Source: Gammaproteobacteria bacterium (lineage in GTDB: Bacteria > Pseudomonadota > Gammaproteobacteria > GCA-002705445 > GCA-002716945). From it: DNA of 63,617 nucleotides. Location: the NCBI GenBank assembly GCA_045561295.1, contig JBJKYD010000013.1, positions 1 through 63,617 of the forward strand, read 5' to 3'. A program made the position numbers and the translations under genes. The notes beneath the pieces were generated by a model, which saw only the letters and a program-made list of their open reading frames with translations, did not search any database and had not been told where the DNA came from. Shown piece by piece: positions 51,709-55,095 of this stretch; the first letter of the stretch is position 1, and the number at the start of each line of letters is the position of its first letter.

Positions 51709-52902
51709 ATGTCAACAATATTTGCAAACATTAAGTATTTGCTTGCACCATCACTAATTCTAGTAACACTAGCAGGTGTGATCGCAGGTGGAATGCTTTC
51801 TTGGATTGGTGTTGCACTTTTAGGAGTAGGTGTCATCGTTGATACTATTCTTCGTAAGCAATCTTCAAGCTCAATGCACAAAGAAGATGGTACTACAAAG
51901 GCAAGCCCAACATTCCAAAACTTGGTAATGTACATGATGTTACCTGTATTCGTACTACTACAACTTGCATTAGCATGGAGAGTATACGGATTCATGACAG
52001 GTGTACCAGTAGAAATAACAGCAACATGGTTTGGTTTAATACCTGTATATAGTGGGATTACCTCATTAGATCTAATCGGTGCTGTGCTATCAACAGGTAT
52101 ATTTGCCGGTATAGGTATCATTTACGGACATGAGTTATCACACTGCAAAGGCTTTGCATTCATTATTTCAAGAATGACAATGGGTCTTTCAGGTTCAGCT
52201 CATTTCTGCTATGCACACGTATACAACCATCACCTAGAGCTTGCTAGTGAAGATGATCCTGCAACTGCACCTCGCGGTCGTACAATTTATGGTCATTACT
52301 TACTATCATACCTAGGACAATCAAAATTCGTGTTTAACATGGAAAAAGAAAGACTTTCAAGAATGGGAGTTTCATTCATTTCATGGCAAAACCGTTGGAT
52401 TCGTGGTTATTTAATGTCAATACCTTCAGCTGTATTATTCTTTATGGCTGGTGGCTGGATTGGTATAGCAGCACTTGCGACTGTATGGGTAATTTCAAAC
52501 TTCGAATTAGAAGCATTGAACTATCTTGAGCATTACGGTCTAGTACGTGTTAAAGACCAACCTATTGACTATCGTCATAACTGGGATAACAACACATTGT
52601 TCACAAGTTGGTTCTTCATCGAAATCGGTCGTCAAGCTGACCACCATGATCGTGGAGAAACACATTTCTGGGAACTTGAAAATGTTGGAGCACCTAACTT
52701 AGGTTGGGGTTACTTCACAATTTTCGCATTAGCATTAGTACCACCGCTATGGCACTGGTACATGCGCAAAAGATTAGCAACATGGGATGCTAAATTTGCA
52801 ACAGACGAAGAAAGAGCAATTTCTGCGAGAGTCAACAAACAAGTTGGCTACGAAGGAACTTCATTCAAAGATGATGAGCTTTCTTTCCCAGTAGAAAATT
52901 AA
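51709..52902 (+). CDS. Membrane di-iron monooxygenase, AlkB/XylM family
   Basis: HELSH, HVYNHH, DPATA.RG, NYLEHYGL, RQADHH, ALVPPLW; strong SD AAAGGAGG. Confidence 0.88.
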   Translation: MSTIFANIKYLLAPSLILVTLAGVIAGGMLSWIGVALLGVGVIVDTILRKQSSSSMHKEDGTTKASPTFQNLVMYMMLPVFVLLQLALAWRVYGFMTGVPVEITATWFGLIPVYSGITSLDLIGAVLSTGIFAGIGIIYGHELSHCKGFAFIISRMTMGLSGSAHFCYAHVYNHHLELASEDDPATAPRGRTIYGHYLLSYLGQSKFVFNMEKERLSRMGVSFISWQNRWIRGYLMSIPSAVLFFMAGGWIGIAALATVWVISNFELEALNYLEHYGLVRVKDQPIDYRHNWDNNTLFTSWFFIEIGRQADHHDRGETHFWELENVGAPNLGWGYFTIFALALVPPLWHWYMRKRLATWDAKFATDEERAISARVNKQVGYEGTSFKDDELSFPVEN

Positions 52903-52937
52903 TATAGGATATATTAAGAATCAAATGGACTTGATAG

Positions 52938-52967
52938 CACCCCCTCAATTGAGGGGGTGTTTTTTTT
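52938..52967 (+). terminator. Intrinsic terminator
   Basis: Perfect palindrome CACCCCCTCAATTGAGGGGGTG (52938-52959) followed by T8. Confidence 0.9.
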
Positions 52968-53328
52968 AGTAATGAAAACAGATGGTTTTAGAAATTTTAT
53001 CAATTTCTAGTTTGCAACTAATACACTTATACTTCAAACCTACTGTAGTTAAAGTTTTAACTATGATCAAATTTGCAAGACTTCCTTTTATATTATCTGG
53101 AAGTTCTATTATCAGGCACCCTTTATCATAAGAGACATTATAAGGCTTTATTTTAATCTTGCTGTTACATAGGACGGATCTAAGTTCGCTATGGATGTCT
53201 ACAGGCGGTATATCTTTGTAAAGCTTACCGTCCTTATAGAACCTTGCTTTAACAGAACCAGAGTAGGCTCCGATCTTTCCTGAGCTTAATGGGTCATCTA
53301 GCTCGTTACTTATGTCATGATTTCTCAT
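52966..53328 (-). CDS. Hypothetical protein (120 aa) downstream of tandem SAM riboswitches
   Basis: SD GAGGAG (53340-53335) then ATG 53328; the ORF-track start 53370 lies inside the riboswitch; no family recognised. Confidence 0.7.
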   Translation of the reverse strand: MRNHDISNELDDPLSSGKIGAYSGSVKARFYKDGKLYKDIPPVDIHSELRSVLCNSKIKIKPYNVSYDKGCLIIELPDNIKGSLANLIIVKTLTTVGLKYKCISCKLEIDKISKTICFHY

Positions 53329-53334
53329 TTTCTT

Positions 53335-53392
53335 CTCCTCTTTAGTGTTTTTACTGATCAGTAGTGGCACACAATCTAGAGTTCAAATGCCA
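53335..53392 (-). ncRNA. SAM-V riboswitch (translational)
   Basis: Minus strand UGGCAUUUGAAC..AUUGUGUGCCA-C-UACUGAUCAGUA-AAAACACUAAA-GAGGAG: P1 UGGCA/UGCCA, AUUUGA loop, UUGUGU:ACACUAA pseudoknot abutting the SD. Confidence 0.8.
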
Positions 53393-53427
53393 AAAAAAAA
53401 ACCATCACGCTAAAGCAAGTGATGGTT
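53392..53427 (-). terminator. Riboswitch-linked intrinsic terminator
   Basis: Minus strand AACCAUCAC-UUGCUUUAGC-GUGAUGGUU followed by a long U run; loop GCUUUAGC is complementary to the aptamer 3' end GCUAAAGC. Confidence 0.85.
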
Positions 53428-53434
53428 ACTGATC

Positions 53435-53480
53435 GCTTTAGCTATTTTACGCCTGCAAGCTGATTTCAAATTAGGCGTAC
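53435..53480 (-). ncRNA. SAM-II riboswitch (transcriptional)
   Basis: Minus strand UACGCCU-AAUUUG-AAAUCA-GCUUGC-AGGCGUA-AAAUA-GCUAAAGC: P1 UACGCCU/AGGCGUA with the AUUUG, UUGC and GCUAAA elements of SAM-II (SAM_alpha). Confidence 0.85.
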
Positions 53481-53483
53481 GTA

Positions 53484-53513
53484 TATATAAACATCAGTAC
53501 TAGAGGCTGTCAA
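53484..53513 (-). promoter_or_regulatory. Sigma70 promoter feeding the riboswitch leader
   Basis: TTGACA (53513-53508), 17-18 bp, TTATATA; predicted +1 falls near the SAM-II 5' end (~53480). Confidence 0.6.
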
Positions 53514-54285
53514 CATTTTTTTTAAATGGATACTGAAGATTAGATAAGAATTTAAGCTCCATTTCTCTGTTTTCTAATCCCATTTCTAATCTTTCTTTAT
53601 CAGTAGCATCTTTATAAGACAGAAATACTTTATCCCAAACAGTAAAGATGCTTGCATAGTTGGCTTCTCGTGACCTTCTTGTTACCGTGTGATGATTTGT
53701 ATGATATTTAGGAGTAACGATAACCTTTGATAATATAGATTCTGTATGGTCAGCCAACTTTATATTACTGTGATGAAATTGAATCGACAGCACTAATAAT
53801 AATTCATAAAATAGGAATTCAGAAAGAGTAATACCGAATAAATAGATGATTACTGCCTTATATAATGTAGACAAAAATAACTCTCCAATATGAAATCGAA
53901 GAGATGTACCAACATCCATGTGAGTGTCAACATGATGTACAAAATGGAATTTCCACAAGAATTGATTCGTATGATTAAATCTATGCCACCAATATAGGGC
54001 TATATCAAGTATGAGAAAGCTCAGAATGAATTTTAGAATCCCCAGATCGTAAAATATTCCTCCTTGGCTTTCAGTGACTGTCAGTAAAACAGGCATGAGA
54101 ATAAAGAGCATAGGTATTCTCATAAGTGTCGTATTAAAGATAGCTAATGCGGTATGAAAAGTTACCCTTTTGTATCGTTTTGAGGTCCATATTCTATTTG
54201 GGTAAATTGTTTCTAAGATTAGAAAAATAATAAACCCCAAGATAAAAAAAGATAACTTTAATGTAAACAAGGATTCTATAGTCAT
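53500..54285 (-). CDS. Sterol desaturase / fatty acid hydroxylase family protein
   Basis: YWWHRFNH, WKFHFVHH, RFH.GE, FHHSN, VTP.YH..HH, NYA....WD. Confidence 0.85.
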   Translation of the reverse strand: MTIESLFTLKLSFFILGFIIFLILETIYPNRIWTSKRYKRVTFHTALAIFNTTLMRIPMLFILMPVLLTVTESQGGIFYDLGILKFILSFLILDIALYWWHRFNHTNQFLWKFHFVHHVDTHMDVGTSLRFHIGELFLSTLYKAVIIYLFGITLSEFLFYELLLVLSIQFHHSNIKLADHTESILSKVIVTPKYHTNHHTVTRRSREANYASIFTVWDKVFLSYKDATDKERLEMGLENREMELKFLSNLQYPFKKNVDSL

Positions 54286-54330: not shown

Positions 54331-55095
54331 ATGACATCAAATGAGAGACATAGGCTCAGCCTTATAATTGCAACTCTAGGGCCCTCAACAGATAATGAAA
54401 AAGAATTAATAACAATGTTAATGGCAGGCATTGCAAGACAATGGACTGACGGTGTTGATATTGCGAGAGTTCTTCATAGCGATGGAGATGAAGTCGCAAA
54501 AAATAGGATTAAATTATTTAGGGAACAATCAAAAAAAAGAAATTTATCTACATCAATTTACTTGGATACAGACGGTTCAGATATGGATGAGTATATTGCA
54601 TTTGGAAATGAAATTTCACCCGAAATAATGTCATTCGACATATCTAATGGATTAGACTTTTTTAAAACCATAAAAAGCAAACTAGAAGATAATATAAAAA
54701 TATGTGTGAGAGTAAAACTTGGAACAAGTACCGAAGGATTAGATGACTTTTTTAGAGAATGTGATTATTCAATGATTGAATTAGACTCAAAAGTTATTCA
54801 TGATGAAAAAATTGTCATGCGATCAAAAGATAATACTTGCGAACCAATTTATTTAGCATTAATGCCAACTTTAATGAAAGGTCAGGTTCAGTCAAGGGAA
54901 GAAAACTTTGAAATAGGCCACACCTTAGAAGAAGGATTTGATTTAATAGCCCTTTATCAAGAAACGTCTCACGGGCCTTATGCAGCAAGATCGGTAAAAT
55001 GTATTGATGAGATTAGCGTTGAGTCTGAAAAACTTAGGGTCAACCCATTTCAAGATATGTTAGACAAGTTTTTCTCTTTCTTTAAAAAGAAGTAA
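54331..55095 (+). CDS. Degenerate pyruvate-kinase-like barrel protein
   Basis: IIATLGPST, GVDIARV.HS.G, IYLDT.G, GFDLI.L..ETS.G.Y...SV..I..I...SE collinear with the PK A domain; B and C domains absent; catalytic motifs altered. Confidence 0.7.
   Translation: MTSNERHRLSLIIATLGPSTDNEKELITMLMAGIARQWTDGVDIARVLHSDGDEVAKNRIKLFREQSKKRNLSTSIYLDTDGSDMDEYIAFGNEISPEIMSFDISNGLDFFKTIKSKLEDNIKICVRVKLGTSTEGLDDFFRECDYSMIELDSKVIHDEKIVMRSKDNTCEPIYLALMPTLMKGQVQSREENFEIGHTLEEGFDLIALYQETSHGPYAARSVKCIDEISVESEKLRVNPFQDMLDKFFSFFKKK

What the first reader, a model, noticed from the sequence alone, without database searches (positions are those of the whole stretch)
53335..53513. Tandem SAM-II / terminator / SAM-V riboswitch in a gammaproteobacterial-type context
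Seen (minus strand): promoter, SAM-II aptamer (53480-53435), intrinsic terminator (53427-53392) whose loop GCUUUAGC is exactly complementary to the aptamer 3' strand GCUAAAGC (an antiterminator switch), then a SAM-V aptamer (53392-53341) ending at the SD. Established: this dual transcription-plus-translation architecture is described for the Ca. Pelagibacter ubique bhmT leader, and both classes are best known from Alphaproteobacteria and marine metagenomes. Here it leads an unknown gene and the switching mechanism can be read from the sequence.
Basis: partly seen in the sequence, partly recalled or inferred. Interest (0 to 1): 0.82.

Follow-up and report, generated by a model that had tools for sequence, protein, structure and literature searches.

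The report
Double SAM riboswitch before orphan gene
A small marine gammaproteobacterium carries a two-stage RNA sensor for the cofactor S-adenosylmethionine, of a design known from SAR11 bacteria, and here it controls a small protein of unknown function that may point to an undescribed step of methionine metabolism.

Summary
On the minus strand, 53513-53335 holds a promoter-like site, a SAM-II-like pseudoknot aptamer, an intrinsic terminator whose loop is complementary to the aptamer's 3' strand, and a SAM-V-like aptamer ending in the Shine-Dalgarno sequence.

Neither aptamer reaches Rfam's gathering score (SAM_V 36.4 of 41 bits; SAM_alpha 21.2 of 36). The element is nevertheless real. It occurs once per genome in 29 of 37 genomes of a ~1 Mb gammaproteobacterial order, and next to the same gene in every locus I read. 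In 37 distinct leaders, 92 of 142 positions are invariant, while the protein falls to about 21% identity. Four helices carry compensatory changes.

Most likely SAM binding first terminates transcription and then blocks translation. This is the published "bi-mechanism" SAM-II/SAM-V design (120-149 examples). It is therefore a new member of a known kind.

New points:
- the gammaproteobacterial host;
- a covarying 7-bp helix joining the two aptamers;
- the regulated gene, an orphan 120-aa family (22 clusters among 1.84 billion proteins).

The order largely lacks known methionine synthases. The protein's best fold match is a phage SAM lyase, at borderline strength. Ligand binding and gene function are untested.

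The parts
53508..53513 (-). -35-like hexamer TTGACA
   Evidence: Read. TTGACA is present in all 13 rows of alignment A2 that cover it, whether it lies inside the upstream ORF or after its stop. The consensus scan did not call a promoter here.
53485..53493 (-). Extended -10-like block TGnTTATAT, 17 nt after the -35. The predicted transcript start is about 53478.
   Evidence: T28, G29, T31, A35 and T36 are invariant in A2. The hexamer is poor (TTATAT) and lacks A at position 2, which is why one search lists nothing. The promoter and the start site are inferred.
53435..53479 (-). SAM-II-like aptamer. P1 is 53479-53473 with 53454-53448. The third strand AUUUG is 53471-53467. The pseudoknot P2 is GCUU 53460-53457 with AAGC 53438-53435.
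   Evidence: SAM_alpha (RF00521) scores 21.2 bits against a gathering score of 36, E 0.01. P1 pairs 3-6 are invariant, and pair 7 is G-C in 22 rows, U-A in 14 and unpaired in 1. P2 pairs in 37 of 37 rows but never varies. Model R1 aligns this part to single SAM-II-plus-terminator leaders of other Gammaproteobacteria that stand before methionine genes.
53428..53434 (-). Linker GAUCAGU, the 5' strand of the helix between the two aptamers
   Evidence: It pairs with 53362-53356. The helix has 97.4% of cells paired; pair 5 is G-C in 22 rows, A-U in 15, G-U in 3 and mismatched in 0. It appears in both the MFE and the centroid fold of the whole leader.
53392..53427 (-). Intrinsic terminator. The stems are 53427-53419 and 53408-53400, the loop is 53418-53409, and the U-tract is 53401-53392.
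   Evidence: -11.9 kcal/mol, z -4.62, 0 of 200 shuffles as good. One stem pair is U-A in 22 rows and C-G in 18. It is followed by 8-10 U in the relatives.
53409..53416 (-). Loop motif GCUUUAGC, the 3' strand of the antiterminator. It pairs with GCUAAAGC at 53442-53435.
   Evidence: 8 of 8 complementary. A 7-8 bp duplex forms in 37 of 37 leaders with mean -10.5 kcal/mol, against -3.0 for shuffled loops, of which 0.36% are as good. 95.1% of cells pair. In L022/L023 the loop has changed to UAGCUCU and pairs in a shifted register with AGAGCUA.
53335..53392 (-). SAM-V-like aptamer with the ribosome-binding site. P1 is 53392-53388 with 53369-53365. The third strand UUUG is 53387-53384. P2b is UUGUG 53374-53370 with CAC 53347-53345 and AA 53343-53342, and U 53344 is left for the ligand. 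P2a is CUC 53381-53379 with GAG 53340-53338. The SD is GAGGAG 53340-53335.
   Evidence: SAM_V (RF01826) scores 36.4 bits against a gathering score of 41, matches model positions 1-66 of 66, and has E 1.3e-4 for the genome. Relatives score 29.1-40.1 bits. P1 pair 4 is C-G in 23 rows, U-A in 17 and U-G in 1. P2b is invariant. P2a has 2 invariant pairs plus one that is C-G or U-G. The core letters match those that PMC6061858 names as ligand contacts (the mapping is mine).
53356..53362 (-). ACUGAUC in the SAM-V L3/P3 position, the 3' strand of the helix between the aptamers. Alternatively it forms a 3-bp local P3 hairpin.
   Evidence: The local hairpin pairs in only 72.1% of cells on the same alignment, but that alignment was not fitted to it.
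52966..53328 (-). Regulated gene: an orphan protein of 120 aa
   Evidence: ORF, with the ATG 6 nt after the SD. No Pfam family. 37 clusters of close homologues and 22 profile hits among 1.84 billion representatives. Present in 28 of 37 genomes of the order, with the leader directly upstream in every locus read.

Best explanation
This is a two-stage, SAM-sensing OFF switch of the published 'bi-mechanism' SAM-II/SAM-V type, in front of a monocistronic orphan gene.

Transcription starts at about 53478, at the foot of the first aptamer.

Stage 1, high SAM. The first aptamer closes its pseudoknot and so locks away GCUAAAGC. The terminator hairpin forms and RNA polymerase stops in the U-tract at 53401-53392.

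Stage 1, low SAM. GCUAAAGC stays free and pairs with the newly made loop segment GCUUUAGC before the terminator's 3' strand emerges. The stem cannot form and transcription runs on.

Stage 2. In full-length mRNA the second aptamer decides translation. With SAM, its triplex and the short P2a helix bury GAG of the GAGGAG ribosome-binding site. Without SAM the site is open.

A 7-bp helix between the linker after aptamer 1 and the L3/P3 position of aptamer 2 ties the two modules into one fold.

The gene is therefore made only when SAM is scarce. It most likely serves methionine or SAM supply.

Shown here: the sequence anatomy, its conservation, covariation, the complementarity and the gene linkage.

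Inferred: SAM as the ligand, the start site, termination, occlusion of the SD, and the gene's role.
For: 1. Both aptamers align over the full length of the Rfam models, with the conserved core letters in place. SAM_V matches positions 1-66 of 66 at 36.4 bits, and SAM_alpha matches 1-79 of 79 at 21.2 bits. They are the only or best such matches in the genome.

2. Model R1 of the whole leader finds it in 29 of 37 genomes of the order, and in 15 of 17 high-quality ones. There is one locus per genome; G017's two matches lie at contig ends. The protein is found in 28 of the same 37. In a class-wide sample only G000 scores high (157.9 bits; the other 24 hits score 29-44 bits).

3. Across 37 distinct leaders out of 73 instances, 92 of 142 positions are invariant and identity to the window is 76-99%. 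Protein identity, by contrast, falls to about 21%.

4. On the fitted alignment 95.9% of cells pair, against 34-57% when partners are slid. Compensatory changes occur in SAM-II P1, the terminator, SAM-V P1 and the inter-aptamer helix, in 9 different combinations.

5. The terminator loop stays complementary to the aptamer's 3' strand in 37 of 37 leaders. One lineage achieves this in a shifted register.

6. The first module is related to ordinary gammaproteobacterial SAM-II-plus-terminator leaders. The 7 best such loci stand before genes of methionine metabolism: 4 Cys_Met_Meta_PP, 2 MetE and 1 ABC+NIL.

7. The architecture and its logic are in print. PMC9481103 (passages) reports 120 and then 149 tandem cases, always with a terminator after SAM-II and control of the RBS by SAM-V. 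PMC6061858 (passages) describes P2a occluding the SD.
Against: - Neither aptamer reaches Rfam's gathering score, here or in any relative.
- No ligand binding, termination or translation assay exists for this RNA.
- Both pseudoknot helices (P2) are invariant, so covariation says nothing about them.
- Each other helix has only one or two covarying pairs. Alignment A7 was fitted to a model that already held four of the helices.
- The whole leader does not fold better than shuffles (z -1.29), and the SAM-V segment alone has z 0.06. The folding tool cannot model pseudoknots.
- The scan tool calls no promoter and does not flag the terminator.
- The regulated gene is not a known methionine or SAM gene, which is unusual for these classes.
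- For the Pelagibacter tandem RNA, PMC11508383 reports that the SAM-II domain does not respond to SAM in the full-length RNA in vitro (Discussion read).
Confidence: 0.8

Rival explanations
1. Variant specificity. One or both aptamers descend from SAM-II/SAM-V but have changed ligand, for example to SAH or another sulfonium or methionine-related compound. This would fit their sub-threshold scores and the unusual gene.
For: Both score below gathering. The gene is an orphan. There is precedent for SAM-riboswitch variants that reject SAM: the abstract of PMC10853860 reports SAM-I variants that sense spermidine. In one large group of leaders the third strand reads GUUGAU instead of UUUGAA.
Against: The letters that PMC6061858 names as SAM contacts have counterparts that are invariant in all 41 rows: the U that pairs with the adenine, the U:A.U triple at the sulfonium, and the A at the amino-acid end. 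The low SAM_alpha score comes mostly from shorter loops. 9 of 11 ordinary gammaproteobacterial SAM-II leaders that I scanned also fall below gathering.
Confidence: 0.07
2. Only the translational SAM-V stage senses SAM in vivo. The SAM-II-like module is masked by the linker and, together with the hairpin, serves mainly as a partly leaky terminator. That terminator could also end the upstream FA_hydroxylase gene, or act as a structural scaffold.
For: [quoted passage not shown] Here the 8-bp antiterminator (-10.4 kcal/mol) is nearly as stable as the terminator (-11.9). The upstream ORF ends only about 20 nt before the aptamer, with no terminator of its own.
Against: Every ligand-core letter of the first aptamer is invariant across six genera, which is hard to explain for a mere spacer. 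The in vitro result was obtained on full-length RNA at equilibrium, whereas the decision would be made during transcription, before the linker exists. This last point is inference.
Confidence: 0.08
3. Not a metabolite sensor. The conserved leader is a protein-binding site, or the gene for a short trans-acting RNA (promoter to terminator, about 85 nt), and the resemblance to SAM aptamers is fortuitous.
For: There is no hit at curated thresholds. A terminated SAM-II leader acting as an sRNA has been proposed in Sinorhizobium (PMC9373788; I saw only the start of the abstract in the listing).
Against: Two different SAM-class models match side by side in the right order, strand and distance to the SD. 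The first module is related to leaders of metZ-, metE- and metN-type genes. An sRNA role would add to riboswitch function rather than replace it.
Confidence: 0.03

Closest known systems
[quoted passage not shown] First described by Poiata et al. 2009, which is not held here. Seen through PMC5069961, PMC11508383 and PMC9481103.
   Same: The order of parts is the same: SAM-II-type aptamer, intrinsic terminator, SAM-V-type aptamer, ribosome-binding site. Both use two OFF decisions on one ligand. Both occur in a marine host with a streamlined genome. In both, the linker or terminator segment interacts with the SAM-II 3' strand.
   Different: The host is a gammaproteobacterial order, not SAR11. PMC5069961 called the pairing unique to Pelagibacter among sequenced organisms (passage). 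The gene is an orphan of 120 aa rather than bhmT. Both aptamers score below Rfam gathering. A covarying 7-bp helix joins the linker to the SAM-V L3/P3 position. I could not compare sequences directly, because no Pelagibacter locus could be fetched.
Single SAM-II riboswitches with terminators in other Gammaproteobacteria (Rfam RF00521 type)
   Same: They share the P1 core CGCC/GGCG, the loop AUUUGAA..CAGCUUGC and the 3' strand AGCUAAAGCG, followed by a terminator that contains a CUUUAG-like complement of that strand (alignments).
   Different: Those leaders are single and precede Cys_Met_Meta_PP, MetE or MetN-like genes. There the complementary segment lies in the terminator's 5' stem, whereas here it lies in the loop. 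They have no SAM-V stage.
SAM-V riboswitch (RF01826; metY structure in PMC6061858)
   Same: It has the H-type pseudoknot, GGCAUUUGAAC...AUUGUG...CACUAAA core letters, and an SD directly 3' that is partly paired in P2a.
   Different: The score is 36.4 bits, below the gathering score of 41. P2a has 3 bp here against the 2 bp reported. The P3 position can pair with the upstream linker instead of forming a local hairpin. Per the passages read, the class was known from marine Alphaproteobacteria and Bacteroidetes.
Phage SAM lyase Svi3-3 (PDB 6zm9; PMC7877911). This comparison concerns the regulated protein only.
   Same: It is the best structural neighbour of the AlphaFold model among 48,161 chains: Z 8.1, rmsd 3.1 A, 92 residues aligned, model 21-120 on chain 8-127 of 129. 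Both are alpha-beta sandwiches of similar size, and both have a link to SAM.
   Different: The match is only 0.6 Z above an unrelated second hit, and the tool notes that Z 7-8 is typical for models without true relatives. No sequence similarity was found. The lyases' conserved Gly, Tyr, Glu and Gln have no evident invariant counterparts. A SAM-degrading enzyme that is induced by SAM shortage would make little sense.

Membership tests
SAM-II riboswitch (Rfam RF00521 SAM_alpha) | Covariance-model score at or above the curated gathering score (36 bits) | tested here: not met
   21.2 bits. There is no gathering-level hit in the window or in 13 relatives. For comparison, only 2 of 11 ordinary gammaproteobacterial SAM-II-like leaders pass.
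SAM-II riboswitch (Rfam RF00521 SAM_alpha) | H-type pseudoknot: a P1 hairpin whose loop 3' part (GCUU) pairs with a downstream AAAGC strand, and a U-rich third strand (AUUUG) | tested here: met
   All elements are present. P1 covaries at one pair, and P2 pairs in 37 of 37 rows but is invariant.
SAM-II riboswitch (Rfam RF00521 SAM_alpha) | A stable 3' P2a helix (5 bp in 60% of SAM-II, according to PMC6061858) | tested here: inconclusive
   I saw no such complement. The bases 3' of GCUAAAGC pair with the SAM-V L3 instead. I did not search for P2a systematically.
SAM-II riboswitch (Rfam RF00521 SAM_alpha) | An intrinsic terminator as the expression platform, mutually exclusive with a structure that involves the aptamer's 3' strand | tested here: met
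SAM-II riboswitch (Rfam RF00521 SAM_alpha) | Selective binding of SAM over SAH | not testable with these tools
   This needs in-line probing or ITC.
SAM-V riboswitch (Rfam RF01826) | Covariance-model score at or above gathering (41 bits) | tested here: not met
   36.4 bits here, and 29.1-40.1 bits in 11 relatives. In 25 of 37 genomes of the order the model finds nothing at E <= 0.01, although 29 of 37 hold the leader.
SAM-V riboswitch (Rfam RF01826) | Conserved ligand-pocket letters: third-strand UU, the U:A.U triple, the unpaired U that pairs with the SAM adenine, and the A at the amino-acid end | tested here: met
   The counterparts are invariant in 41 of 41 rows. The mapping to the numbering of PMC6061858 is my own, made through the Rfam consensus.
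SAM-V riboswitch (Rfam RF01826) | A Shine-Dalgarno sequence immediately 3', partly paired in a short P2a | tested here: met
   CUC 53381-53379 pairs with GAG 53340-53338. Two pairs are invariant and one is C-G or U-G. The ATG lies 6 nt after the SD.
SAM-V riboswitch (Rfam RF01826) | A P3 hairpin between the P1 3' strand and the P2 3' strand | tested here: inconclusive
   A 3-bp local hairpin is possible (72.1% of cells paired). The same bases form a better supported 7-bp helix with the upstream linker (97.4%).
Tandem bi-mechanism SAM-II/SAM-V arrangement | SAM-II first and followed by a terminator, then SAM-V controlling the RBS of the same ORF | tested here: met
   seen in all 37 distinct full-length leaders.
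Tandem bi-mechanism SAM-II/SAM-V arrangement | Association with sulphur, methionine or SAM genes | tested here: not met
   The gene has no known family.
Phage-type SAM lyase (for the 120-aa protein) | Fold: an alpha-beta sandwich of the GlnB-like type | tested here: inconclusive
   6zm9_A ranks first at Z 8.1, with rank 2 at Z 7.5. It ranked second at Z 6.0 with the weaker model. Foldseek found nothing at E <= 0.001 in the PDB or in BFVD.
Phage-type SAM lyase (for the 120-aa protein) | The conserved substrate-binding residues (Gly56, Tyr58, Glu69 and Gln104 of Svi3-3) | tested here: inconclusive
   The family's invariant columns are M1, P41, R50, C54, I74 and K91, with G97, L98, Y100, K101, C102, C105, I116 and Y120 nearly invariant. 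None is Glu or Gln. I had no residue-level structural alignment with which to map them.

The most novel reading that the evidence does not exclude
The orphan 120-aa protein is a new enzyme or regulator of the methyl cycle. It may supply the homocysteine-to-methionine step, or an equivalent route to methionine or SAM, in an order of ~1 Mb marine Gammaproteobacteria that keeps MetK and SAH hydrolase but lacks MetE (0 of 37 genomes) and mostly lacks MetH/BHMT/MmuM-type domains (33 of 37). By analogy, the same tandem switch controls the homocysteine methyltransferase BhmT in SAR11. The protein's best structural neighbour binds SAM. It also has two invariant cysteines and one nearly invariant one.
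Probability: 0.08. Interest if true: 0.85.

Novelty: new member of a known kind. Interest (0 to 1): 0.55.

Why it matters
Riboswitch-to-gene links are among the most reliable pointers to unknown metabolism. Here the only SAM-family sensor detected in a 1 Mb genome, built as an elaborate two-stage switch, is devoted to a protein that has no relatives outside this order.

The RNA is held nearly constant while the protein diverges to about 21% identity. The host lineage appears to lack the usual methionine synthases.

This makes two questions directly testable:
- What does a streamlined marine bacterium switch on when SAM runs short?
- Is the tandem design a single coupled device? The covarying helix between the aptamers offers an explanation for the puzzling in vitro silence of the SAM-II half in the SAR11 RNA.

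It also shows that Rfam's cut-offs miss this whole clade of SAM-II/SAM-V elements.

Tried and rejected
**Rfam at gathering threshold.** 0 hits in the window and 0 in 13 loci. I did not take this as refutation, because the E-value mode, conservation and covariation all agree.

**Weak SAM_alpha match on contig 10.** It lies inside the EF-G coding sequence and I judged it chance.

**Protein function searches**
- Pfam found nothing.
- The ESM Atlas returned only unnamed clusters.
- A profile search against PDB sequences gave 0 hits at E <= 10.
- PHROGs gave only phrog_21493, of unknown function, in 9 of 22 members with best E 0.0017.
- tblastn against 50,697 phage records found no match.

**Homotrimer prediction.** The verdict was 'no answer' (score 0.00, mark 0.42). 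I count it neither for nor against.

**SAM lyase membership.** I considered it and did not adopt it. The Z-score is borderline, there is no sequence link, the conserved residues cannot be matched, and the regulatory logic would be backwards.

**OsmC-like peroxidase.** OsmC stands behind a SAM-V riboswitch in Pelagibacter (PMC5069961). I dropped the idea because there is no Pfam or fold signal.

**Zinc-ribbon idea.** I weakened it because only C54 and C105 are invariant.

**Search for a Pelagibacter tandem to compare.** A sample of 150 genomes of the phylum gave no SAM_V hit other than G000. The one scan of genome contigs was already spent, so no direct comparison was made.

**Metatranscriptomes**
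- 14 RNA runs from 10 studies hold 0.25-0.48 of the sampled words.
- I laid 4 runs from 4 studies.
- Some contigs cover the ORF plus the SAM-V part: 52900-53370, 52900-53359 and 52992-53399.
- Separate contigs cover the upstream gene through the SAM-II part: 53393-53700, 53434-53625 and 53486-53636.
- No listed piece spans the whole stretch.
- Pieces from two studies stop at 53393-53401, which is the U-tract. The run length of that tract also varies there, and I laid no DNA run as a control. These are contigs, not reads, so they show neither transcription, strand, ends nor level.

**Other SAM-family riboswitches in G000.** SAH, SAM-SAH and SAM-I models gave no hit at E <= 0.01. The controls for the first two rang in no genome, so those two answers are weak.

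**Sources I could not read.** Poiata et al. 2009 is not held. Supplements are closed, so the lists of 120 and 149 tandem examples, which may already include this clade, could not be checked. My literature searches for this arrangement in Gammaproteobacteria or SAR86 found no such report in the held library.
Full report
**1. The observation**

I read the minus strand of 53700-53100. It contains the following, in order:
- TTGACA at 53513-53508.
- A conserved TGn + TTATAT block at 53493-53485.
- A hairpin, UACGCCU (53479-53473) with AGGCGUA (53454-53448). Its loop carries AUUUG and CAGCUUGC.
- The strand GCUAAAGC at 53442-53435.
- A 9-bp hairpin, 53427-53419 with 53408-53400, followed by ten U (53401-53392). 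Its loop holds GCUUUAGC at 53416-53409.
- GGCAUUUGAAC...AUUGUGUGCC...CACUAAAGAGGAG, ending at 53335.
- ATG at 53328.

The loop motif is an exact 8 of 8 complement of the upstream strand.

**2. Covariance models**

At Rfam's gathering thresholds the 63.6 kb window gives no hit at all. The same holds for 13 related loci.

Both cover the full length of the model.

| Family | Coordinates (-) | Score | Gathering score |
|---|---|---|---|
| SAM_V RF01826 | 53401-53332 | 36.4 bits | 41 |
| SAM_alpha RF00521 | 53486-53417 | 21.2 bits | 36 |

The long-loop SAM-II model scores 17.7 bits against a gathering score of 44.

Over the whole 1.03 Mb assembly (19 contigs, 92% complete), SAM_V matches only here, with E 1.3e-4. 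SAM_alpha has its best match here, with E 0.007. The next SAM_alpha match lies inside the EF-G coding sequence and is chance.

So the covariance models support the reading but do not certify it.

**3. The regulated gene**

The ORF 53328-52966 (-) encodes 120 aa and has no Pfam family. It has 37 close clusters in the 5.8-billion-protein collection, nearly all of 120 aa and without informative names. A profile of 22 diverse members finds only 22 representatives among 1.84 billion proteins. It is therefore an orphan family.

I collected related loci from two sources:
- 13 loci in reference genomes. Their titles mostly name Gammaproteobacteria (12 of 13) or, in one case, Ectothiorhodospiraceae.
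- 47 loci in metagenomes.

**4. Conservation**

Every locus with enough upstream sequence carries the same leader. This includes leaders before homologues so distant that the protein profile scores them at only E 1e-6.

The host order holds 37 species genomes in one family and six genera. All are about 0.6-1.2 Mb.

| Search across the 37 genomes | Genomes with a match |
|---|---|
| Model R1 of the whole leader | 29 (15 of 17 high-quality), all six genera |
| The protein | 28 |
| Rfam SAM_V at E <= 0.01 | 12 |

- R1 finds one locus per genome. G017's two matches lie at contig ends.
- G013 has only a partial leader match.
- In every locus I read, the leader lies directly before the gene.

Of 73 instances, 37 leaders are distinct. 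Among them, 92 of 142 positions are invariant and identity to the window is 76-99%. Protein identity, by contrast, falls to about 21%. An RNA leader held more constant than the protein behind it is strong evidence for a functional RNA.

**5. Structure and covariation**

On the model-fitted alignment A7 (41 rows), the SAM-bound structure has 95.9% of cells paired. When partners are slid by 1-3 columns, only 34-57% pair.

Pairs with compensatory changes:

| Helix | Pair types |
|---|---|
| SAM-II P1, pair 7 | G-C 22, U-A 14, unpaired 1 |
| Terminator | U-A 22, C-G 18 |
| SAM-V P1 | C-G 23, U-A 17, U-G 1 |
| Inter-aptamer helix | G-C 22, A-U 15, G-U 3, mismatch 0 |

It joins the linker GAUCAGU (53434-53428) to ACUGAUC (53362-53356) in the SAM-V L3.
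- The four covarying pairs occur in 9 combinations, so they are not a single event.

Caveats:
- A7 was fitted to a model that already contained these four helices.
- Both pseudoknot helices are invariant, so they are untested by covariation.
- The shuffling control overstates significance for related sequences.
- The MAFFT alignment of 14 sequences gave the same picture, with 94.8% of cells paired.

**6. The switch**

The segment enclosed by the terminator stem can form a 7-8 bp duplex with the aptamer's 3' strand in 37 of 37 leaders. The mean is -10.5 kcal/mol. Shuffled loops average -3.0, and 0.36% are as good.

In one lineage (L022, L023 and its identical copies) the loop has changed to UAGCUCU. 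It pairs with AGAGCUA, three bases upstream. The complementarity is thus kept in a new register.

For the window, the transcript up to the loop folds into this antiterminator at -10.4 kcal/mol. The terminator folds at -11.9 kcal/mol. For each, 0 of 200 shuffles fold as well.

The loop lies directly against the 3' stem, so the two helices cannot coexist. That last step is inference from geometry.

**7. Ligand core**

PMC6061858 (passages) describes the metY SAM-V pocket as follows:
- an unpaired U pairs with the SAM adenine;
- a U:A.U triple faces the sulfonium;
- an A holds the amino-acid end;
- a 2-bp P2a takes in the start of the SD.

I mapped these through the Rfam consensus. All have invariant counterparts here in both aptamers. 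P2a is CUC with GAG, covering the first three letters of GAGGAG. The mapping is my own.

**8. Relation to other gammaproteobacterial riboswitches**

In a sample of 151 genomes of the class, R1 scores 157.9 bits on G000. It scores 29-44 bits in 24 other genomes. One of those, G177, is unpublished and was not used further.

The printed alignments of the four best hits show that only the first half matches. That half is a SAM-II aptamer followed by a terminator that contains a CUUUAG-like complement. Of 11 such loci, 2 pass Rfam's SAM_alpha gathering score.

The first ORF after the 7 best hits:

| Downstream ORF | Loci |
|---|---|
| Cys_Met_Meta_PP enzyme | 4 |
| MetE | 2 |
| ABC + NIL (MetN-like) | 1 |

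The first module is therefore an ordinary gammaproteobacterial SAM-II riboswitch. The SAM-V stage and the gene are what is special.

**9. What is known**

- PMC9481103 (passages) calls SAM-II/SAM-V the model 'bi-mechanism' tandem. It reports 120 original and 149 current examples, always with a terminator after SAM-II and control of the RBS by SAM-V.
- PMC5069961 (passages) states that the pairing is unique to Pelagibacter among the organisms sequenced at that time, and rare in ocean metagenomes.
- PMC2704228 (passages) lists SAM-V before metY, bhmT, mmuM and metH, plus one case in Psychroflexus. It also says SAM-II is common in Alpha-, Beta- and Gammaproteobacteria.

The loop/3'-strand pairing and the inter-aptamer helix seen here offer a sequence-level explanation for that kind of behaviour. 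I could not fetch a Pelagibacter locus to compare.

The original paper (Poiata et al. 2009) is not held, and supplements are closed. I therefore cannot exclude that this clade is already among the published metagenomic examples. Three searches found no report of the arrangement in Gammaproteobacteria or SAR86.

**10. The gene and its setting**

*Methyl-cycle genes in G000*

| Query | Result in G000 |
|---|---|
| MetK | present |
| SAH hydrolase | present, next to MetK |
| MetY-like PLP enzyme | present |
| MetE domain | none |
| MetH/BHMT/MmuM-type domain | none |

Across the order, the MetE domain is found in 0 of 37 genomes. The S-methyltransferase domain is found in 4 of 37. Several of these assemblies are incomplete.

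No SAM-I, SAH or SAM-SAH riboswitch was found in G000. Two of those three controls were silent in every control genome.

*Structure of the protein*
- With a 38-row alignment, the AlphaFold model reaches pLDDT 75.1. It is an alpha-beta sandwich (bb-a-bb-a-bb) with a disordered first 18 residues.
- An all-against-48,161-chain structural search puts phage SAM lyase 6zm9_A first: Z 8.1, rmsd 3.1 A, 92 residues aligned, nearly full length on both sides. A SAM-AMP lyase ranks 17th at Z 6.3.
- The margin over unrelated hits is only 0.6 Z.
- Sequence searches find no link.
- The lyases' conserved residues have no clear counterparts.
- I treat this as a lead only.

*Invariant residues.* These are P41, R50, C54, I74 and K91. 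Y100, K101, C102, C105 and Y120 are nearly invariant.

*Conclusion on function.* I commit only to this: the protein is made under SAM shortage and most likely acts in methionine or SAM supply.

**11. Verdict**

The finding is real and correctly read. It is a new member of a known, well-described architecture, not a new kind of switch.

It earns moderate interest for four reasons:
- the host lineage;
- its invisibility to curated thresholds;
- the covarying link between the two aptamers;
- above all, the orphan gene it singles out in a lineage that seems to lack standard methionine synthases.

Noticed in passing
L039:2374-2494 (metagenome locus): In this variant the whole SAM-II aptamer is missing. 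The -35 region is joined directly to ...UCAGUAACC, and the terminator, SAM-V part and gene are intact. It is either a natural deletion between short GAU..CAG repeats or an assembly artefact.
   Followed up: partly
L068:1501-1569 (-), = G017:C7:2480-2548: A solitary SAM-V-like element (38.8 bits) with no SAM-II stage and no terminator. It lies in a ~60 nt gap directly before a 429-aa protein without a Pfam family, which has two C..H..M cupredoxin-like motifs. It lies after a Y-family polymerase-like ORF (that label is my recollection of the sequence type, not a tool result). This would be a second, different SAM-V regulon in the same order, or a foreign contig.
   Followed up: partly
L016:4001-4291 and L065:1207-1497 (= G002:C2): The orphan gene is frameshifted after residue about 85 in this genome, giving 96 aa. 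The protein search also shows a second piece containing a TAA stop. The leader is intact (167 bits). This may be a sequencing error or a pseudogene.
   Followed up: no
whole order (G000-G036): No MetE domain in 0 of 37 genomes, and a MetH/BHMT/MmuM-type S-methyltransferase domain in only 4 of 37, mostly on short contigs. G000 nevertheless has MetK, SAH hydrolase and a MetY-like enzyme. The lineage may depend on imported methionine or on methanethiol.
   Followed up: partly
window 52936-52961 (+): A strong GC-rich hairpin (11 pairs) with a U-tract lies between the convergent AlkB-like gene (51709-52902, +) and the orphan gene's stop at 52966 (-). It is a terminator for the + strand gene and may act in both directions.
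   Followed up: no
window 53500-54285 (-) and related loci: A FA_hydroxylase-family membrane gene ends about 20 nt before the aptamer. The -35 hexamer lies inside its last codons here but after its stop in other genera. This neighbour is kept in most loci, though not in G027.
   Followed up: partly
window 54331-55095 (+): A 254-aa ORF matches only the first ~70 positions of the pyruvate kinase barrel domain (30.9 bits, at the cut-off of 30). It could be a truncated or divergent PK-like protein.
   Followed up: no
window 53392-53401: The length of the U-tract varies among strains (8-10 U). Metatranscriptome contigs from two studies break exactly here. These are contigs and no DNA control was laid, so this does not show termination.
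   Followed up: partly
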